From an uncultured Gammaproteobacteria bacterium (lineage in GTDB: Bacteria; Patescibacteriota; Microgenomatia; Levybacterales; UBA12049): 64,000 nucleotides of DNA. The notes under the pieces are model-generated. The model worked only from the letters and a program-made list of their open reading frames with translations. It was not told where the DNA came from and did not search any database. The stretch spans positions 155,440-219,439 of the forward strand of contig CAZAZU010000001.1 in assembly GCA_964490105.1 (NCBI GenBank), read 5' to 3'. The number at the start of each line of letters is the position of its first letter. Position 1 is the stretch's first letter. Below are positions 5,520-14,379 of the stretch, piece by piece. Both the position numbers and the translations under genes were made by a program.

Positions 5520-6554
5520 TTAAAATTGCTCTAAAAATTCTAGTTTATTACTGTAAAGTAATCTAAGATCATCGATTTCAATTCCCTCTTTCATCATGAG
5601 AACTCTTTCAACTCCCCAACCAAAAGCGAAGCCATTAAATTCTTTAGGGTCTATTCCGCAATTAATTAATACATTTGGATGAACCATTCCTGCTCCTCCC
5701 ATTTCAAGCCACCCTTCTTTACACAACTTGCATCCTTTTCCCTCACATACTCCGCAGCTTACGTCTACCTCAAAAGAAGGTTCTGTAAATTCGAAATGGT
5801 AAGGTCTGATTCTCGCACTTCTTTTTTCTCCGAAATATGATTTTACGAAATAGTCTAAAACTCCTTTTAAATTTACGATTGATAAATCTTTGTCTATCGC
5901 AAGTCCCTCAAACTGATGAAACATAGGAGTGTGTGAGACATCGGATTGGCGCCTATAGCATTTAGCGATGTTTAGCATTTTTATCGGAGGTTTGCTTTCT
6001 TGCATTTCTCTAATTTGACCACTTGAAGTATGTGGAGTTAAAAGCATTGGGCCGTATTTTTTGCTCGTAGGTGCATCAATAAAAAAAGTTTCCCAATCGT
6101 CACGGGCTGGATGACCTTCTGGGAAATTTAGAGCACCAAATGCATGCCAATCCCACTCTACCTCTGGATACCTAACTCTACTAAAACCTATTCGATCAAA
6201 GATGTCTGTAATTTCTGAAATTGCCTGAGTTATAAGATGATGATGTCCTAGTGCGGGCCTAATACCTGGATTTGTAACATCTATTCGTTCAATTTTTGCG
6301 CGTGTTTCTGTGTGCTTTGCGCCCTTTGTTTTTTCTTTAAGAGTTTCTTCAATTGTATTTTTTACTTCGTTTGCTAAAACTCCGATTTCTTTTCTTCTCT
6401 CCGGGTCTATTTTAGGCAATTGTTTTAGAAGTAGCGTTAACTGACCGCTTCTACCTAAGAATTCTAATTTAATTTCTTCTAATTCCTTTGGATCCTCAGT
6501 GTCGAGGATTAAGCTCATGGCATTATTTTTAATGTTAATTAGTTCATTTTCCAT
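5520..6554 (-). CDS. pheS: phenylalanine--tRNA ligase alpha subunit
   Basis: 344 aa; class II aaRS core, FPEGHPARD motif; directly upstream of pheT. Confidence 0.9.
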   Translation of the reverse strand: MENELINIKNNAMSLILDTEDPKELEEIKLEFLGRSGQLTLLLKQLPKIDPERRKEIGVLANEVKNTIEETLKEKTKGAKHTETRAKIERIDVTNPGIRPALGHHHLITQAISEITDIFDRIGFSRVRYPEVEWDWHAFGALNFPEGHPARDDWETFFIDAPTSKKYGPMLLTPHTSSGQIREMQESKPPIKMLNIAKCYRRQSDVSHTPMFHQFEGLAIDKDLSIVNLKGVLDYFVKSYFGEKRSARIRPYHFEFTEPSFEVDVSCGVCEGKGCKLCKEGWLEMGGAGMVHPNVLINCGIDPKEFNGFAFGWGVERVLMMKEGIEIDDLRLLYSNKLEFLEQF

Positions 6555-6600
6555 CTAGCTTAAGTATATCGAATTTGAGGGCAAATTGGGAGAATGCGGT

Positions 6601-7146
6601 TTACCTGCCTCTACCTATGAATCTTGAGAAAATAGTTCTTCCTCTTCTAGCTTCTCTCTCTGCTTCGCCTCGAGCTTTACTAATAAGCTCAGCTGGAGAT
6701 TGATACCCAAACCTGTTTAAAAGAAGAGCTCTATTTGGTACATATATTGCTCTTGCGTGAATAACATCAATTCTGTGATCAGTTAGTCTGTAGTCTGTTC
6801 CGTCCGGTGTCGTAAGAAGAACTTTACCTGTATGAGGACCTGCGCCTAGTCTTATGGATGGTGAACCTTTATGCAACGCTTCAAGGGAAAGCGTCTCATT
6901 TGTTAATGTTCTGTAGGGAGCAGTAGCATGTGCTAAATTTTCCGCTACTCCTAGATTTGCATGCGCGCCTTCAACAGGATCTAGTACTCGTTCTCGAATA
7001 TTCCGGCCATTTGCTAATTGACCAGCTTCTATTAAGCCATCCATTCTAGCGAGTGATTGTTCTGCTGCAGTCCTAATTTCTGCAGTAGTAGGTCGATATC
7101 TGTCAGTCATGTGCGAGATATTACCATCAATTAGATTTTGTGTCAA
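6601..7146 (-). CDS. hypothetical protein, GC-shifted cassette I gene C (N-term MTxxxxDxxIxHxT shared with 12906..13271)
   Basis: 181 aa uninterrupted ORF in a locally GC-richer segment; start abuts stop of 7147..7413 (translational coupling). Confidence 0.5.
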   Translation of the reverse strand: MTQNLIDGNISHMTDRYRPTTAEIRTAAEQSLARMDGLIEAGQLANGRNIRERVLDPVEGAHANLGVAENLAHATAPYRTLTNETLSLEALHKGSPSIRLGAGPHTGKVLLTTPDGTDYRLTDHRIDVIHARAIYVPNRALLLNRFGYQSPAELISKARGEAEREARRGRTIFSRFIGRGR

Positions 7147-7413
7147 TTACGCTGCGATTTCTCTCTGAGCGGGCGATTCTCTTCTTGCTTCCATTTCAGC
7201 TCTTCTTTGATCCATCACTAATCCCTGCCATTCAGCCTCTTGTCTGTGCCTAATTATTCTTTGAGCTCTTCCTTTTTCTGCTTCAAAAAGTTTTAATGTC
7301 GACGGATTAGTAGACAAAACAACAAGTTTTCTTTCAGGTGCGATCCCAGCATGAGGATCTGCAATTGGCAGTGCAGAATAATCTAAATGTAATCCAGTAT
7401 TTCTTTCTGTCAT
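7147..7413 (-). CDS. hypothetical small protein, cassette I gene B
   Basis: 88 aa; strong SD AAGGGAGGTGA upstream of ATG; weak similarity to 13264..13497 (VVxxS...TL...EKxxAQ). Confidence 0.5.
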   Translation of the reverse strand: MTERNTGLHLDYSALPIADPHAGIAPERKLVVLSTNPSTLKLFEAEKGRAQRIIRHRQEAEWQGLVMDQRRAEMEARRESPAQREIAA

Positions 7414-7463
7414 AATTAATCACCTCCCTTCGACGTTTCTCAGGGTAAACTTTTTAAAACCAC

Positions 7464-7489
7464 AAAAAAACCTCCCATCTTGGGAGGCT
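7464..7489 (-). terminator. rho-independent terminator (minus strand), conserved copy 1
   Basis: minus-strand GCCTCCCA-AGA-TGGGAGG followed by TTTTTTT; near-identical copy at 13548..13572. Confidence 0.6.
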
Positions 7490-7619
7490 TATTGCCTTTT
7501 TATTTTTGGCAATACGTTACCTCCCGGAAGGGAAAGTAAAGTAAAACCCGAAATTTATAATCTTTATCATTTATTTATGTTAATAAATTATTTTCAATTA
7601 CGCAAATAACACTTCTATA

Positions 7620-8138
7620 TTAAGCTGATTCTTGTATAGGGCCTGCGGGTTGAGCAGTCTGTTCTGGTGAATTCGATCTTTTAAAATCATCAAGAGCTCT
7701 TCTTAAGCTCCCTATCCAAATTCCCCTAGCGTTAATGACTTCCATGTCGCTGGGAGTTTCTTCTCCAAGAACTGGAAGGCCTGCATGTTCCCCCGCAGCA
7801 TGAGTATATGTTCTAAGGATGCCATCAGTGGAAAGATATGTCCCAATCATATCTGACCGCAGAATATTTGCGGTTGTTTTCTCTCCATCAATAATTACCT
7901 CTTCTGTTGGAAATGCACCCATTTCACCAAGGCCTACAGCTACTTTCCTGAGTCTATCTCTAATCCGGCTCGCAGCATATGAGACGTCAGTTTCTACTAA
8001 TTCAGATGCGTTTTTTAATCCACTCTCTGCTCTATTTATGCCCTTTTTAAGTTGCTCAGGTGAAAGGGATGGTGCTGGACCGCCAAATTCCCATTCTCCC
8101 CATTGTTCTGGTTGTGCTTGTTCTCTTCCTCTAGTCAT
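7620..8138 (-). CDS. hypothetical protein, cassette I gene A
   Basis: 172 aa, GC-shifted, acidic/Gly-Pro-rich; C-terminal region loosely resembles 13711..14379 (MEV(I/L)...SL..AL..K.S). Confidence 0.5.
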   Translation of the reverse strand: MTRGREQAQPEQWGEWEFGGPAPSLSPEQLKKGINRAESGLKNASELVETDVSYAASRIRDRLRKVAVGLGEMGAFPTEEVIIDGEKTTANILRSDMIGTYLSTDGILRTYTHAAGEHAGLPVLGEETPSDMEVINARGIWIGSLRRALDDFKRSNSPEQTAQPAGPIQESA

Positions 8139-8171
8139 GGTTGGGATTTTAACAAAGAAGTGTGCTTATTG

Positions 8172-8453
8172 TCAATTTAGTCTTCTTAGTGTTACGGTGT
8201 GGCCGATTTGAACAACTTCGTTATTCTTTGGAGTGCTAATAACACGTCCCTCCGATATAAGATGCTTTAATTGTCTAATTTTTCTATCCAAATCGCTAAG
8301 TTCGAATCGCGCTCCTTTATAATACCCATTTTCAGAAAGGTCTCCCATGTTTCTTGCCTTGGTTAAGGTCGCCACAACCTGAGGACGTTTTTCTTCAGCT
8401 TCTCTTAAATCGGACTTTAACTTTTCAAATCCTTCTTTAGTGAAAAATGCCAT
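8172..8453 (-). CDS. greA: transcription elongation factor GreA, N-terminal coiled-coil domain only (3'-truncated)
   Basis: 93 aa; GDLSENGYY motif and alignment to GreA residues 1-95; ORF stops where the GreA C-terminal FKBP-like domain should start. Confidence 0.7.
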   Translation of the reverse strand: MAFFTKEGFEKLKSDLREAEEKRPQVVATLTKARNMGDLSENGYYKGARFELSDLDRKIRQLKHLISEGRVISTPKNNEVVQIGHTVTLRRLN

Positions 8454-8472: not shown

Positions 8473-8817
8473 TTATTTAACTGAGGAAACGATTTCTTTG
8501 AAAGTAGCTGGATCGGTTTGAACTAAATCATTTAAAATTTTTCTATCTAATTCGACTTTTTCAGCTTTAAGTTTGTTAATAAGAACTGAATATGAAATTC
8601 CTTCTTTTTTTGAAGCTTCTGAAATTCTAGTAATCCAGAGCGCTCTGTTATCTCTTTTTCTTAGTTTTCTTCCATGGTATGCATATTGACCAGCGTGAAG
8701 GTCTGCTTCATGAGCATCTTTTGTTAGCCTATTATTTGTGCCAATAAAGCCTTTGTTTCTTTCAAATAATTTATTGTGTTTTCTTTTAGAGACTACGCCT
8801 CTTTTTACTCTTGCCAT
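8473..8817 (-). CDS. rplT: 50S ribosomal protein L20
   Basis: MARVKRGVVSKRKHNK... canonical L20. Confidence 0.95.
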   Translation of the reverse strand: MARVKRGVVSKRKHNKLFERNKGFIGTNNRLTKDAHEADLHAGQYAYHGRKLRKRDNRALWITRISEASKKEGISYSVLINKLKAEKVELDRKILNDLVQTDPATFKEIVSSVK

Positions 8818-9572: not shown

Positions 9573-11346
9573 TTTCCTCTTCGATCTTTTGTAAAAAATG
9601 AGAAAGCTCTAGATTTCCCAGGTCTTCCCCATTTCTACCTCTAATTGAAACACTGTTATTTTCAATTTCTTTGTCCCCTATTATACCTAAGTATGGCGTT
9701 TTTTGCAAAGTTGCTTCTCGAATCTTGGCCTGAAGCCTCTCTGACCTAAAATCTACCTCTGCTCGAATACCACTAGAAATGAGCTCATCAGCCACTTTTT
9801 GAGAGTATTCATTATGCTTATCAGCGATTGGGAGAAGTTTAACCTGGATTGGACTAAGCCACACAGGAAATGCGCCGGCATAGTGTTCTGTAAGAATTCC
9901 CAGGAATCTTTCAAACGAGCCGTAGATAGCTCTATGTAGGACCACAGGGGTAATTTCATTACCTGTCTGATCGATGTATCCTAGCTTAAAGTTCTTTGGC
10001 TGCTGAAAGTCTAACTGAATAGTTCCTGTTTGCCATTCTCGTCCTAAGGAATCTTTCATGAGGATGTCCACTTTCGGTCCGTAAAATGCACCTTCCCCCT
10101 CTTCGGTTACGTATTCTTTTCCTGATTTATCTAAAACTACCTGCAGTGCTTTTTCCGCGGCATCCCAATCTGTACTTTCTCCCATAAAGTTATCTGGTCT
10201 TGTTCCAAAGCGAAGTCTATATGAAAGATTGAAAGCTTTATAAAGTTCTTCTATCATATCCATAATATTTTCAAACTCTTCTTCGACTTGACCTGTTGTT
10301 AAGAAAATATGAGCATCGTCCTGATGAAATTCGCGCGCTCTAAAGAGTCCGTTTAAAGTACCGCTTGGTTCAAATCTATGAAGTGCTGAAGTTTCAGAAA
10401 ATCTTAATGGGAGATTTTTATAGGATCTTAGAGTCATAGAAAAAACGTTCATAGCATTAGGGCAGTTCATAGGTTTTATTCCGAATACTTCTGTTCCAGT
10501 GAGTGGCTCGCTAGAGTCTTCTCTTAAGAAGGACATTGGGGACAAAAACATGTCGTCTCTGTAATGCGACCAGTGTCCAGAAATTTCATAAAGGGTTTTC
10601 TTATTTAGAATTGGTGTTGATATTTCTTTATATCCATATTTTCTGTGCACCGCTCTTGAGAAATTTAAAAGATTGTTGTAAAGAATAAAACCGTTTGGGA
10701 GGAAGTAAGGCATACCCGGTGACGTTTCATGGAACATGAATAATTCCAGATCAACACCAATTTTTTTATGATCTCTTTTCTTTGCTTCTTCAAGTATTTG
10801 AAGATACTCATCAAGCTCTTCTTTTGTAGAAAAACTTGTTCCATAGATTCTGGTCAGCATTTTATTTTTTTCGCTTCCCCGCCAATATGCACCAGCTAAA
10901 GAAAGAAGCTTAAATGCACCGATGTCCCGTGCAGGATTTTCGCTGTGTCCGCCACGACAGAGATCTTCAAAATTTCCCGCTTTATAAAATGAAATCTTCT
11001 CCCCTTTTTCTACTATTTCATCTACTAATTCTTGTTTGTATTTATTATTTTTATAAAATTCCTTCGCTTCTTCCGCAGTTACTTCTCGGTGAGAAAAAGA
11101 ATCCCAGGTTGGCAAAATTTCCGCCATTTTTTTTTCAATTTTTGGAAGATCTTCTTCAGAAATGGGATTTTTAAAATCCAAATCATAATAAAAACCAGTA
11201 TCAATCGAAGGGCCTATTGTTAAAAGAGTATCAGGATAGAGATCTAAAATAGCTGCAGCAAGAAGATGCGCAGTCGAGTGTCTTATATTTGAAAGGTGTG
11301 CTTCGTTCATCTTTGGGATTTTAGCAAGCGCCGGTCTTTTTAGCAA
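9556..11346 (-). CDS. thrS: threonine--tRNA ligase (short form lacking TGS domain)
   Basis: 596 aa; editing-domain HSTAHLLAAA motif, class II catalytic core and anticodon-binding domain. Confidence 0.9.
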   Translation of the reverse strand: MLKRPALAKIPKMNEAHLSNIRHSTAHLLAAAILDLYPDTLLTIGPSIDTGFYYDLDFKNPISEEDLPKIEKKMAEILPTWDSFSHREVTAEEAKEFYKNNKYKQELVDEIVEKGEKISFYKAGNFEDLCRGGHSENPARDIGAFKLLSLAGAYWRGSEKNKMLTRIYGTSFSTKEELDEYLQILEEAKKRDHKKIGVDLELFMFHETSPGMPYFLPNGFILYNNLLNFSRAVHRKYGYKEISTPILNKKTLYEISGHWSHYRDDMFLSPMSFLREDSSEPLTGTEVFGIKPMNCPNAMNVFSMTLRSYKNLPLRFSETSALHRFEPSGTLNGLFRAREFHQDDAHIFLTTGQVEEEFENIMDMIEELYKAFNLSYRLRFGTRPDNFMGESTDWDAAEKALQVVLDKSGKEYVTEEGEGAFYGPKVDILMKDSLGREWQTGTIQLDFQQPKNFKLGYIDQTGNEITPVVLHRAIYGSFERFLGILTEHYAGAFPVWLSPIQVKLLPIADKHNEYSQKVADELISSGIRAEVDFRSERLQAKIREATLQKTPYLGIIGDKEIENNSVSIRGRNGEDLGNLELSHFLQKIEEEIDKKV

Positions 11347-12905: not shown

Positions 12906-13271
12906 TTATTCACCTCCTCCAGCTGTTAGCTCTTCTAATAATGTTCCTGACGAAAAAACTACATGATTTGGAAAAACTTGTGCTCCCGATTGGGCAATTC
13001 CATATCGATCTTTGTCTCTCGCAACTTGTTCAGCAAGCCAGTCAACGGCAGCGACTTGATCCGGTGGGTTTCCTCTCTCAACCTTAAAGCTTAATCTAGG
13101 AGTTTCTTCTCCTTCTCTAAGCCAAACTTCTCGAGTTATAAATGTATCTCCAAGAAAACGGACTTCAAATTGGCCTCCTCTGTTAACCTTTCCATATAGT
13201 TTAAAAAGAGTTGGTTTGACTGGCTCTTTGGTCACATGATGTATTGATGAATCGTAGGCTTCGTTAGTCAT
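12906..13271 (-). CDS. hypothetical protein, cassette II gene C (paralog of 6601..7146 N-terminus)
   Basis: 121 aa; N-term MTNEAYDSSIHHVT vs MTQNLIDGNISHMT; start overlaps stop of upstream gene by 8 nt. Confidence 0.5.
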   Translation of the reverse strand: MTNEAYDSSIHHVTKEPVKPTLFKLYGKVNRGGQFEVRFLGDTFITREVWLREGEETPRLSFKVERGNPPDQVAAVDWLAEQVARDKDRYGIAQSGAQVFPNHVVFSSGTLLEELTAGGGE

Positions 13272-13497
13272 AATTTCCTTCTCCCATCGGCGAATAAACA
13301 GCAGACATCAGTTGAGCTTTTTCTCTTGGATGTACAGGCATTACTAATGTTTCGTTCCCATGTTGTGAATCAAATACCACATTTATTTCAGAAACCTTTC
13401 CTCCAAGAGTCGAATTTATTGTCCCGCTAGTACCTGCTACTTCCGTTGGAATCATAAATCCTAAATTTCTATAATTTTCTTTCGCCATTGAGTCCAT
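13264..13497 (-). CDS. hypothetical small protein, cassette II gene B
   Basis: 77 aa; SD AAAGGAAAA; same position relative to conserved terminator as 7147..7413. Confidence 0.5.
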   Translation of the reverse strand: MDSMAKENYRNLGFMIPTEVAGTSGTINSTLGGKVSEINVVFDSQHGNETLVMPVHPREKAQLMSAVYSPMGEGNYD

Positions 13498-13547
13498 AAT
13501 AATTTTCCTTTCAAAGTCGGAATCGCTTTGAATTCTGACTAAACCAC

Positions 13548-13572
13548 AAAAAAACCTCCCGTCTGGGAGGCT
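13548..13572 (-). terminator. rho-independent terminator (minus strand), conserved copy 2
   Basis: aaaccacaaaaaaaCCTCCCgtctGGGAGGct, near-identical to 7458..7489. Confidence 0.6.
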
Positions 13573-13710
13573 GTCCTGGTTGCGTATTTGTCTTACTTAC
13601 GCGTCAGACTTACCCCCCTTAAGGGATTTAAGAATGACGAGAATAAGATTTTTTATCGCTTGCATGAAAAGTATAATAGCAATTTAATATTTACTGTGTC
13701 AAGAGGAGTT

Positions 13711-14379
13711 TTATCCTGTTTGAGTAGCCGCGGTTCTTTCGTTAGAAAGAGTGAATGAGGTTCCGCCTTTTTTAGCCATAGCGCCGTATTGACGTGAAGC
13801 TTTTTTACTTCTTAAAGCATGGAACCAAGCTAAGGAATCTTCTACGTTCATTCGGGCATCTCTAATCCACTTTAGGACTTCTTCCATGAAGTTAAGATGA
13901 TAAACGCCAGGGTTTTCACCGATTTGTTCGATAGTTAAGACTTGTACTTTTTCTTTGAGTTCGCCTGAGCTATTGGCAAGCTGTTTTATCTCAATCAAGA
14001 TTTCCTGCACTTTAACCGCGATTTCTTGATTTTCTGAAGAGGCTCCTCTTTCTGAAGCATGAACTATATCTCTATGGTAACTATTTCCAGCCTCAACATG
14101 AGGTTTTGAGTGCTCTTTATTGCTTTCGCCGTGGTTTACTTCAACTTCTTCGCCTGCATGCATTTCCGTTTCCCCACCATGATGGTCATCATGAGACTTA
14201 TCAGCACCTAAAAATTGATCCCATGCATCAAAAACTAAGTCCTTTCCGGCATCGGTTTTTATTGATTTAACCACGTCATTACCCATACCCATTAAGGCTT
14301 CGAATGGATTTTCGTCTATATATTGTTTCGGCTCTTTTTTGCCGCCACTTTTTAGCTTTGGAAGTTGCATAACTCGCAC
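13711..14379 (-). CDS. hypothetical His/Glu-rich protein, cassette II gene A
   Basis: 222 aa, GC-shifted, acidic His-rich middle region. Confidence 0.5.
   Translation of the reverse strand: MRVMQLPKLKSGGKKEPKQYIDENPFEALMGMGNDVVKSIKTDAGKDLVFDAWDQFLGADKSHDDHHGGETEMHAGEEVEVNHGESNKEHSKPHVEAGNSYHRDIVHASERGASSENQEIAVKVQEILIEIKQLANSSGELKEKVQVLTIEQIGENPGVYHLNFMEEVLKWIRDARMNVEDSLAWFHALRSKKASRQYGAMAKKGGTSFTLSNERTAATQTG

What the first reader, a model, noticed from the sequence alone, without database searches (positions are those of the whole stretch)
6601..8171. GC-shifted three-gene cassette I inserted between pheS and a truncated greA
Three co-oriented ORFs (172, 88 and 181 aa) sit in a segment visibly GC-richer than the flanking housekeeping genes. 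The small middle gene has a perfect SD and a coupled start with the next gene. None of the products has a motif I recognise. The segment interrupts the otherwise conserved thrS-infC-rpmI-rplT-pheST block. Its gene order, N-termini and intergenic element are paralogous to a second cassette at 12906..14379, so it behaves like a multi-copy inserted module of unknown function.
Basis: partly seen in the sequence, partly recalled or inferred. Interest (0 to 1): 0.75.

Follow-up and report, generated by a model that had tools for sequence, protein, structure and literature searches.

The report
Phe attenuator flanked by orphan genes
The "three-gene cassette" is not a repeated mobile module: it is three separately promoted, lineage-restricted genes of unknown function sitting around a phenylalanine-sensing leader-peptide attenuator that controls the phenylalanyl-tRNA synthetase operon of a Levyibacteriota (CPR) bacterium.

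Summary
The three co-oriented ORFs are real, under purifying selection, and absent from many relatives, where rplT abuts pheS. The GC excess lies in codon positions 1+2; GC3 equals the genome mean. The proteins share nothing with the "second cassette". The "coupled TTG start" is the -35 box of a conserved promoter, and ORF181 starts at ATG 7110 (169 aa). The truncated greA is an old 93-aa form ending at the same residue in at least 10 related loci.

The spacer 7464-7605 is the informative part. It holds a promoter, a probably leaderless 17-codon ORF (MIKIINFGFYFTFPSGR), mutually exclusive hairpins and a terminator. Rfam Phe_leader matches it below threshold. About 35 related elements, all F/Y-rich, precede pheS or Phe-biosynthesis genes; Thr-run versions precede thrS. 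The element at 13548-13665 shares this design with a Leu/Ile/Val-rich leader, and that is the only real paralogy.

ORF88 is the first cistron behind the attenuator. ORF172 and ORF181 have their own leaderless-type promoters. ORF88 and ORF181 form a conserved, fast-evolving, mosaic pair. No family or fold match was found for the proteins searched, so function is unknown.

The parts
8172..8453 (-). greA, N-terminal coiled-coil domain only (93 aa). The acidic tip GDLSENG is kept and the C-terminal RNAP-binding domain is absent. The stop codon TGA lies inside the next promoter's -35 box.
   Evidence: Pfam GreA_GreB_N 2.7e-17. NCBIfam GreA models match only model positions about 1-99. The alignment with 150-158-aa GreA of relatives shows the same truncation point in six loci. 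No GreA C-domain is found anywhere in the window.
8146..8175 (-). Promoter of ORF172: TTGACA-N18-TAAAAT (11/12, TG-extended), ending 7 nt before ATG 8138. This predicts a leaderless mRNA.
   Evidence: It is conserved in L001, L003, L006, L007 and L009, and in front of UPRTase in L008 and L083. It is near-identical to the -10/start region of thrS (D14).
7620..8138 (-). ORF172, an orphan cytoplasmic protein: a conserved disordered N-terminus (WGxWExGGP), two long helices, a 5-stranded sheet and C-terminal helices.
7577..7605 (-). Promoter of the leader transcript: TTGCGT-N17-TAACAT, ending 6 nt before the leader ATG, with no SD. This predicts a leaderless leader ORF.
   Evidence: Read from the sequence. 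A -10 box 6-7 nt upstream of the leader ATG recurs in relatives.
7517..7570 (-). Leader peptide ORF, 17 codons plus stop: MIKIINFGFYFTFPSGR (4 Phe + 1 Tyr).
   Evidence: Thirty orthologous leaders are 19% F and 8% Y, against 4.9% and 3.3% in the proteome. It resembles enterobacterial pheL, to which the Rfam Phe_leader consensus translates.
7513..7543 (-). Hairpin 1:2. The Phe/Tyr/Thr codons UACUUUACUUUCCC pair with GGGAGGUAACGUA, which spans the leader stop codon.
   Evidence: MFE folds. RNAalifold predicts its core independently. 87% of cells are paired across 17 sequences.
7482..7525 (-). Antiterminator 2:3. GGGAGGU pairs with GCCUCCC and encloses the hairpin AUUGCC..GGCAAU.
   Evidence: -20.2 kcal/mol, z -4.8. 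It is the MFE of the transcript lacking the 3' terminator arm in 12 of 28 relatives. The outer helix is paired in 98% of cells.
7464..7490 (-). Intrinsic terminator 3:4 (AAGCCUCCC-AAGA-UGGGAGGUU) plus U7.
   Evidence: -17.3 kcal/mol, z -4.1. 90% of cells are paired.
7147..7428 (-). ORF88 with its SD (GGGAGG 7428..7423). It is the first cistron downstream of the attenuator.
   Evidence: Six homologue clusters. It lies directly behind the attenuator in the window, L001, L002 (a shorter, unverified 65-aa ORF), L083, L084 and L088, and after prephenate dehydratase in L008. Ka/Ks is 0.20-0.46. A strong SD is rare in this window.
7118..7146 (-). Promoter of ORF181: TTGACA-N17-(TG)GTAATAT, ending 7 nt before ATG 7110.
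   Evidence: It is conserved in L001, L002 and L008, with a similar -10 in L090.
6601..7110 (-). ORF181, true length 169 aa. It is an orphan protein with a conserved C-terminal half (VPNRALLLNRFG..TIFSRFTGRGR).
13548..13665 (-). The second copy of the element design: promoter TTGACA-N18-TATTAT (13702..13673), leader ORF MQAIKNLILVILKSLKGGKSDA (13665..13597), GGGGGG/CCUCCC/GGGAGG boxes and a terminator (13572..13546).
   Evidence: CM R1 scores 28.8 bits, E 0.003. Rfam Phe_leader scores 27.2 bits, E 0.31. Orthologous Leu/Ile/Val-rich leaders follow the DUF5660 gene in at least 9 loci.

Best explanation
The interval is a composite of native transcription units built around a ribosome-mediated, phenylalanine-sensing attenuator of the pheST operon.

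Shown or strongly supported. A promoter starts a transcript at or next to the AUG of a 17-codon Phe/Tyr-rich leader ORF. The Phe/Tyr codons lie in segment 1 of a 1:2 / 2:3 / 3:4 set of mutually exclusive hairpins, and 3:4 is an intrinsic terminator.

Inferred mechanism. When Phe-tRNA is plentiful, the ribosome reaches the stop codon inside segment 2, the terminator forms and transcription stops at about 7464. When Phe-tRNA is scarce, the ribosome stalls on segment 1, GGGAGG pairs with CCUCCC, and RNA polymerase reads on into ORF88, ORF181 and pheS-pheT.

Evolutionary context. In relatives the genes behind this attenuator are DAHP synthase, chorismate mutase, an aminotransferase and prephenate dehydrogenase/dehydratase, followed by pheST. 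In the window's clade those genes are gone and the slot holds the orphan pair ORF88-ORF181.

Expression of the three genes. ORF88 has a strong SD and no promoter of its own, so it is the attenuator-controlled product. ORF181 has its own near-consensus promoter and is probably made constitutively from a leaderless mRNA. ORF172 lies upstream of the attenuator in a second variable slot after the truncated greA. It is expressed from its own leaderless-type promoter, and its transcript should end at the attenuator's terminator.

Protein function. The biochemical function of the three proteins is unknown. My working guess, at low confidence, is that ORF88 is a Phe-starvation-induced partner that modulates the constitutively made ORF181.
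For: Attenuator. The leader is Phe-rich and conserved as xFGFYFTxxxGR in the close clade and as F-Y-F-(Y)-F-T more widely. A terminator and alternative folds are predicted. Pairing is kept in 85-90% of cells, against 34-54% when the partner is slid. Rfam Phe_leader matches over the full model at 38.8 bits, E 8.5e-4 in 8 kb. The element is tied to its cognate genes: about 35 F/Y-rich leaders precede pheS or DAHPS/CM/AT/PDT. As an internal control, leaders with runs of 5-7 Thr sit 49-420 nt upstream of thrS.

Not a mobile cassette. GC3 is native. Native promoters are conserved across genomes. The same arrangement appears in independent assemblies. Synteny is kept in genomes whose ORF181 is only 46-60% identical. 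There are no repeats or recombinases and no viral relatives.

Real genes. Ka/Ks is 0.10-0.46, and AF2 gives confident models for ORF172 and ORF181.

ORF88-ORF181 as a pair. They are adjacent in the window, L001, L008, L084-86 and L088, and in the distant L090 away from pheS. A stop-codon read-through fusion is tolerated in P0006.
Against: No compensatory base changes exceed the shuffle controls, because the helices are made of nearly invariant GGGAGG/CCUCCC boxes. The RNA structure therefore rests on conserved pairing potential and context, not covariation. The Rfam score is below the gathering threshold (38.8 < 55). No expression data exist. pheS lacks an SD and carries a conserved TATACT 8 nt before its ATG, so part of pheS expression may not depend on the attenuator. 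ORF181's own promoter means only ORF88 is clearly attenuator-dependent. The protein functions are unassigned, and the ORF88-modulates-ORF181 idea has no direct support. An ancient transfer from a GC-rich donor, with third positions since ameliorated, cannot be excluded given the Gly/Ala/Arg/Pro-rich composition.
Confidence: 0.72

Rival explanations
1. One reading: a horizontally acquired, multi-copy mobile cassette inserted between rplT/greA and pheS.
For: The site is empty in many relatives and its content varies between close relatives. Total GC is raised and the proteins are rich in Gly/Ala/Arg/Pro. Alleles are mosaic, and Ks is locally low for ORF181 between the window and L084 (0.43, against at least 1.0 in the flanks), which indicates recombinational exchange.
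Against: No protein paralogy to the second locus. GC3 is native. No integrase or transposase, no flanking repeats. Each gene carries a host-type promoter that is conserved across genomes and resembles the thrS promoter. The genes occupy two separate slots that vary independently. No relatives in viral contigs.
Confidence: 0.08
2. ORF88-ORF181 is a toxin-antitoxin-like or defence/conflict module that lodged in the pheST operon. ORF172 would be a further fast-evolving conflict gene.
For: It is a conserved two-gene pair with a small first gene. It evolves fast (Ka/Ks 0.2-0.46 against 0.03-0.07 in the flanks). It shows mosaic allele exchange and patchy presence, and it occurs in a different context in L090.
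Confidence: 0.12
3. The ORFs are decaying remnants or overprinted relics of the lost Phe-biosynthesis genes, or are not functional genes at all.
For: They occupy the slot where relatives carry DAHPS/CM/AT/PDT. Their taxonomic range is very narrow.
Against: tblastx and blastn against the biosynthesis regions of nine relatives found nothing. L008 carries PDT together with ORF88 and ORF181. Ka/Ks is well below 1 in all comparisons. Lengths and starts are conserved and the AF2 cores are confident.
Confidence: 0.05

Closest known systems
Enterobacterial Phe attenuators: pheL upstream of pheA (Rfam Phe_leader RF01859) and pheM upstream of pheST
   Same: A short Phe-rich leader ORF (FFTFP- / FYFT-type), 1:2-2:3-3:4 alternative hairpins, a CCUCC/GGAGG terminator plus U-tract, and control of Phe biosynthesis and pheST. 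The position after rplT matches E. coli thrS-infC-rpmI-rplT-pheM-pheST (gene order from my own knowledge). pheST attenuation in gamma-proteobacteria is noted in PMC1262725. The Rfam match covers the full model.
   Different: The score is below the family's gathering threshold. The host is a Patescibacteria/CPR lineage. The leader ORF has no SD and its AUG sits 6-7 nt after the -10 box, which predicts leaderless translation. In this clade one element drives biosynthesis genes and pheST as a single operon. In many relatives segment 4 (GGGAGG-U7-AUG) is also the SD of the next gene.
Mycobacterial polycysteine leaderless short ORFs acting as Cys-responsive attenuators (bioRxiv 10.1101/834739)
   Same: A leaderless sensory short ORF enriched in one amino acid. 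Stalled ribosomes prevent an RNA structure that sequesters the downstream ribosome-binding site. Several loci share the same design, a 'ribulon'.
   Different: Here the structure also has a canonical U-tract terminator. The amino acids are Phe, Thr and Leu/Ile/Val. The leaderless status is only predicted from promoter spacing.
GreA/GreB transcript-cleavage factors
   Same: The adjacent 93-aa gene keeps the N-terminal coiled coil with the acidic tip motif.
   Different: It lacks the globular C-terminal domain, which the literature holds responsible for RNAP binding (PMC4598747). This truncated form is conserved in a whole sub-clade.
Type II toxin-antitoxin pairs
   Same: ORF88-ORF181 is a small-plus-larger adjacent pair, patchy in distribution and fast-evolving.
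   Different: No homology or fold match. The second gene has its own strong promoter, a fusion is tolerated, and each gene is also found alone.

Membership tests
Ribosome-mediated leader-peptide transcription attenuator (Phe type) | Short leader ORF enriched in codons of the regulatory amino acid | tested here: met
   The leader has 4 Phe + 1 Tyr in 17 codons (P about 0.008-0.01 for this one leader). Thirty orthologous leaders are 19% F and 8% Y, against 4.9% and 3.3% background.
Ribosome-mediated leader-peptide transcription attenuator (Phe type) | Intrinsic terminator between the leader ORF and the regulated genes | tested here: met
   10-bp GC-rich stem plus U7 at 7490..7464. It is conserved in all related elements.
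Ribosome-mediated leader-peptide transcription attenuator (Phe type) | Mutually exclusive 1:2, 2:3 and 3:4 pairings, with the regulatory codons in or just before segment 1 and the stop codon at segment 2 | tested here: met
   Folds. RNAalifold recovers 1:2 and 3:4. The leader stop UAA directly follows GGGAGG.
Ribosome-mediated leader-peptide transcription attenuator (Phe type) | Compensatory base changes supporting the helices | tested here: inconclusive
   Pairing is kept in 85-90% of cells, but covariation measures do not exceed the shuffles. The helices are nearly invariant.
Ribosome-mediated leader-peptide transcription attenuator (Phe type) | Downstream genes belong to the cognate amino-acid pathway | tested here: met
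   pheST in the window; DAHPS, chorismate mutase, aminotransferase and PDH/PDT plus pheST in relatives. Thr-run leaders precede thrS, which serves as a control.
Ribosome-mediated leader-peptide transcription attenuator (Phe type) | Read-through responds to Phe-tRNA availability | not testable with these tools
   Needs expression or reporter experiments.
Rfam Phe_leader (RF01859) | Score at or above the curated gathering threshold (55 bits) | tested here: not met
   38.8 bits, E 8.5e-4 in an 8-kb search, full-length match. It is related in design but not a member by Rfam's criterion.
Mobile / horizontally acquired gene cassette | Mobility genes or flanking repeats / att sites | tested here: not met
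   No recombinase domains. No significant flanking direct or inverted repeats.
Mobile / horizontally acquired gene cassette | Atypical composition at synonymous sites | tested here: not met
   GC3 is 0.227-0.267, against a genome mean of 0.265 +/- 0.037.
Mobile / horizontally acquired gene cassette | Multiple homologous copies | tested here: not met
   BLASTP E>1 between the two loci. Clustering and jackhmmer find no link. Only the regulatory element recurs.
Mobile / horizontally acquired gene cassette | Presence/absence polymorphism among relatives | tested here: met
   The rplT-pheS gap ranges from 52 bp to 4.2 kb, with differing content.
Type II toxin-antitoxin / known defence systems | Homology of either protein to a known toxin, antitoxin or defence family | tested here: not met
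   No PADLOC, Pfam, NCBIfam or PHROG hits. Structure searches were run for ORF172 and ORF181 only and gave no specific match.
GreA (for the neighbouring 93-aa gene) | N-terminal coiled coil with acidic tip AND C-terminal RNAP-binding domain | tested here: not met
   The N-domain is present. The C-domain is absent from the gene, from the window and from the neighbouring ORFs.

The most novel reading that the evidence does not exclude
ORF88-ORF181 is a previously unknown two-protein module whose stoichiometry is set by tRNA-Phe charging. ORF88 is made only on attenuator read-through and ORF181 is made constitutively. The module would therefore be a Phe-starvation-triggered switch, for example a growth-arrest, conflict or host-interaction system. 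It would have replaced Phe biosynthesis in an auxotrophic CPR symbiont and is kept hypervariable by diversifying selection and recombination.
Probability: 0.15. Interest if true: 0.75.

Novelty: new member of a known kind. Interest (0 to 1): 0.55.

Why it matters
Candidate Phyla Radiation bacteria are usually described as regulation-poor auxotrophs. This locus and its relatives show a family of classical ribosome-sensing attenuators in Levyibacteriota: Phe, Thr and a Leu/Ile/Val type. They share a GGGAGG/CCUCCC design and leader ORFs that are probably leaderless. They control aminoacyl-tRNA synthetase genes and, in some members, a residual Phe-biosynthesis operon. I found no report of this in the searchable literature.

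This gives a concrete, testable handle on how these uncultured organisms sense amino-acid supply. It also corrects gene starts, for ORF181 and probably thrS. It shows that fast-evolving orphan genes collect in the slots next to these attenuators. Finally, it exposes a conserved GreA that has lost its RNAP-binding domain.

Tried and rejected
- **Paralogy of the two cassettes.** BLASTP of the three protein pairs, all-against-all clustering and jackhmmer found none.
- **ORF172 and ORF181 as distant paralogues.** They have the same order of secondary-structure elements. However, hhalign probability is below 1% and HMM cross-searches are marginal. This is left open and not claimed.
- **ORF172 as the missing GreA C-domain.** A GreA-C HMM and tblastn found nothing in the window or in any gap protein. 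UPRTase replaces ORF172 in L008, L083 and L088.
- **Relics of Phe-biosynthesis genes.** tblastx and blastn were negative.
- **P0006 as a Rosetta-stone fusion of ORF88 and ORF181.** It is explained by a TAA-to-CAA read-through across the in-frame 45-nt spacer that holds the ORF181 promoter, so the evidence is weak.
- **Covariation support for the RNA.** Not obtained.
- **Viral or mobile origin.** No relatives in IMG/VR.
- **Names for the proteins in public sources.** None.
Full report
**1. What is at the coordinates**

All genes in this part of the window are on the minus strand. In order they are:
- thrS, infC, rpmI and rplT (8817..8473)
- a 93-aa gene that matches only the N-terminal domain of GreA (8453..8172; Pfam GreA_GreB_N 2.7e-17)
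- ORF172 (8138..7620)
- a 206-nt spacer
- ORF88 (7413..7147)
- ORF181 (7146..6601 if read from the TTG)
- pheS (6554..5520) and pheT

Loci recovered with pheS carry titles naming Candidatus Levyibacteriota / Patescibacteria, so the organism is a CPR bacterium. The same arrangement is present in independent assemblies, so it is not an assembly artefact.

**2. Composition**

The three ORFs have 41-45% GC, against a gene mean of 37.1% (z 1.2-2.2). Their GC3 is 0.227-0.267, against a genome mean of 0.265. The excess sits in codon positions 1+2, because the proteins are 34-39% Gly/Ala/Arg/Pro against 21% in the rest of the window. The visible GC shift is therefore real, but it reflects amino-acid composition. 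It is not the synonymous-site signature of recently imported DNA. A very old import with ameliorated third positions cannot be excluded.

**3. Paralogy with 12906..14379**

BLASTP of 172 vs 222 aa, 88 vs 77 aa and 181 vs 121 aa gives E>1 in each case. All-against-all clustering and jackhmmer also find no link. The 222-aa protein is a DUF5660 protein.

What does recur is the intergenic element:
- GGGAGGTTTTTTTGTGGTTT occurs exactly twice in 64 kb, where 0.02 is expected.
- The two spacers align over about 110 nt.
- A covariance model built only from Phe-type elements finds 13548-13665 as the single other significant hit (28.8 bits, E about 0.003).

**4. What the spacer is**

Read on the minus strand, the spacer contains the following:
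- a promoter, TTGCGT-N17-TAACAT (7605..7577)
- six bases later, and with no SD, ATG 7570 opening a 17-codon ORF, MIKIINFGFYFTFPSGR
- GGGAGG overlapping the last two codons, followed directly by the stop
- a small hairpin, ATTGCC..GGCAAT
- CCTCCC
- GGGAGG followed by U7

Folding gives three mutually exclusive structures:
- 1:2, in which the Tyr/Phe/Thr codons pair with GGGAGGUAACGUA
- 2:3, the antiterminator, at -20.2 kcal/mol
- 3:4, the terminator, at -17.3 kcal/mol

RNAalifold recovers 1:2 and 3:4 on its own. Rfam's Phe_leader, whose consensus translates to the enterobacterial pheL peptide, aligns over its whole length at 38.8 bits. That is E 8.5e-4 in an 8-kb search and is below the 55-bit gathering score.

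**5. Comparative evidence**

Eighty Levyibacteriota pheS loci were fetched. A pattern scan of all loci fetched up to that point, plus the window, found 59 elements of the design "short ORF - GGGAGG - CCUCCC - GGGAGG-U(5 or more)".
- Leaders rich in Phe/Tyr (FGFYFT, FYFYFTS, FFFFFT and similar; about 35 elements) are followed by pheS or by genes that Pfam identifies as DAHP synthase, chorismate mutase, class I/II aminotransferase and prephenate dehydrogenase/dehydratase, and then by pheS.
- Leaders with runs of five to seven Thr lie 49-420 nt upstream of thrS in L048, L056, L072 and L075.
- Leaders rich in Leu/Ile/Val follow the DUF5660 gene; the window's second element is one of these.

This amino-acid-to-gene correspondence is the strongest argument that these are ribosome-sensing attenuators.

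The limits of the evidence are as follows. Pairing is kept in 85-90% of alignment cells, against 34-54% for slid partners. Compensatory changes do not exceed the shuffles, because the boxes are almost invariant. No expression data are available.

In most loci the -10 box ends 6-7 nt before the leader AUG and there is no SD. This predicts leaderless translation of the leader. It resembles the Cys-responsive leaderless short ORFs of mycobacteria (10.1101/834739). In many relatives GGGAGG-U7 is followed directly by ATG, so segment 4 doubles as the SD of the next gene.

**6. The three genes are not one unit**

*Slot A*, between truncated greA and the attenuator:
- It holds an ORF172-family gene in the window, L001, L003, L006, L007, L009, L084 and L093.
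- It holds uracil phosphoribosyltransferase in L008, L083 and L088.
- It holds nothing in L028.

*Slot B*, between the attenuator and pheS:
- Phe-biosynthesis genes in L016, L018, L028 and L045
- PDT + ORF88 + ORF181 in L008
- ORF88 + ORF181 in the window, L001, L084-86 and L088 (L002 has ORF181 plus a shorter, unverified 65-aa ORF in the ORF88 position)
- ORF88 alone in L083
- an ORF181-like gene alone in L003
- other small ORFs in L006, L007 and L009
- nothing in L061, where the attenuator sits directly between rplT and pheS

*Start signals*:
- ORF172 is preceded by TTGACA-N18-TAAAAT ending 7 nt before its ATG. The TGA stop of greA lies inside that -35 box. The same promoter precedes UPRTase in L008 and L083. 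Its -10/start region is nearly identical to that of thrS (D14).
- ORF181 is preceded by TTGACA-N17-TGgTAATAT ending 7 nt before ATG 7110, and this is conserved in L001, L002 and L008. All homologues begin MxDRY at that ATG. The protein is therefore 169 aa, and the "TTG coupled start" is the -35 hexamer.
- ORF88 has no promoter of its own, but it has one of the few strong SDs in the window. It is the cistron that the attenuator controls most directly.

**7. Are they genes, and how do they evolve?**

Ka/Ks is 0.10-0.19 for ORF172, 0.20-0.46 for ORF88 and 0.18-0.32 for ORF181. The values for pheS and greA are 0.03-0.09. The ORFs are therefore coding but fast-evolving.

Identities to the window vary independently of the flanks, while pheS stays at 91-95%:

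| Locus | ORF172 | ORF88 | ORF181 |
|---|---|---|---|
| L001 | 80% | 44% | 52% |
| L084/85 | 54% | 56% | 86% |
| L088 | - | 68% | 48% |
| L003 | 24% | - | 33% |

Ks for ORF181 between the window and L084 is 0.43, against at least 1.0 in the flanks. This mosaic pattern points to recombination among divergent alleles.

The families are tiny. Each has 6 clusters among 5.8 billion sequences. The ORF181 profile finds 12 clusters among 1.84 billion representatives.

A distant ORF181 homologue in L090 is again preceded by an ORF88 homologue and a similar -10 box, away from pheS. ORF88-ORF181 is therefore a conserved pair. The 262-aa "fusion" P0006 is a stop-codon read-through across the in-frame spacer.

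**8. Function of the proteins**

- There are no hits in Pfam, NCBIfam, PADLOC or PHROGs.
- AF2 models are moderately confident, at pLDDT 77.6 for ORF172 and 76.0 for ORF181. For ORF181 the other four of the five models scored only 45-59. Both models show two long helices, a small sheet and C-terminal helices.
- No relatives occur in viral contigs.
- There is no similarity to the Phe-biosynthesis genes they replace.

Function remains unknown. The only mechanistic statement the data allow concerns wiring: ORF88 should rise on Phe-tRNA shortage, while ORF181 and ORF172 are driven by their own promoters.

**9. The truncated greA**

Full-length greA (150-158 aa) lies between rplT and pheS in more distant Levyibacteriota. 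In the window's clade, and also in L028, the gene ends at the same residue (..VTL[KR]R[IL]N*). It keeps the GDLSENG tip and has Ka/Ks 0.03-0.09. No C-domain is found in the window or in the neighbouring ORFs. The C-domain is regarded as the RNAP-binding part (PMC4598747). The truncation is old and is not caused by ORF172. Whether a second greA exists elsewhere in the genome could not be checked.

**10. Verdict**

The region is a Phe attenuator with native, lineage-restricted orphan genes in the variable slots on either side of it. The attenuator is a new member of a well-known kind, found in a phylum where I found no prior report. The proteins are uncharacterised.

Noticed in passing
window 8172-8453 (-); also L001, L003, L006-L009, L011, L028, L083, L084, L093: A GreA consisting of the N-terminal coiled coil only (92-95 aa). 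It ends at the same residue in a whole sub-clade, keeps the acidic tip and is under strong purifying selection. More distant relatives have a 150-158-aa greA at the same place. No C-domain is found nearby.
   Followed up: partly
window 13548-13702 (-): A second attenuator-like element: promoter, leader MQAIKNLILVILKSLKGGKSDA, G-rich/CCUCCC/GGGAGG boxes and a terminator. It lies directly after the DUF5660 gene. Orthologous Leu/Ile/Val-rich leaders occur in at least 9 loci. What follows them is a different set of small orphan ORFs in almost every genome, before a conserved HD-domain gene and thrS. What it regulates is unclear.
   Followed up: partly
L048:2999, L056:3825, L072:2635, L075:1550 (leader starts): Leaders with runs of 4-7 Thr codons plus the same GGGAGG/CCUCCC terminator design lie 49-420 nt upstream of thrS in other Levyibacteriota. 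The window itself has no such element in front of thrS.
   Followed up: partly
L016:3296-7000, L018, L028, L045, L065, L074: Some Levyibacteriota carry DAHP synthase, chorismate mutase, an aminotransferase and a prephenate dehydrogenase/dehydratase fusion between the Phe attenuator and pheS. This is a Phe/Tyr-biosynthesis plus pheST operon in a phylum usually regarded as auxotrophic.
   Followed up: partly
window 11310-11346 (-): thrS probably starts at ATG 11310, giving 584 aa as the gene callers have it, and not at the TTG 11346. TTGCTA-N17-TAAAAT ends 7 nt before that ATG and closely resembles the ORF172 promoter. Leaderless-type starts seem to be used for first genes of operons here.
   Followed up: partly
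whole window: Strong Shine-Dalgarno sequences (5 nt or more) are rare: 8 of 75 ORF regions have one, several of them at implausible starts. ORF88 has one of the best.
   Followed up: no
window 6555-6568 (-): pheS has no SD. It has a TATACT box 8 nt before its ATG that is conserved in L001, L006, L008 and L083, although the sequence further upstream differs. This may be a separate, leaderless pheS start that bypasses the attenuator.
   Followed up: no
L094:1-1220; L028:2842-3342: A 178-aa protein in L094, marginally related to the ORF181 family (E 1e-6 / 5e-4 in small databases), sits between truncated greA and an ORF172 homologue. Both L094 genes have their own TTGACA promoter. A relative of the 178-aa protein lies between rplT and greA in L028. 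The neighbourhood of greA seems to collect such promoter-plus-ORF units in varying order.
   Followed up: partly
many loci, e.g. L065:2899, L074:3270, L075:4926, L040:6471: The 3' arm of the terminator (GGGAGG) followed by U6-7 and then ATG is the SD and start of the next gene. The hairpin would therefore both terminate transcription and sequester the ribosome-binding site. In the window the U-tract is followed by a vestigial GTG.
   Followed up: no
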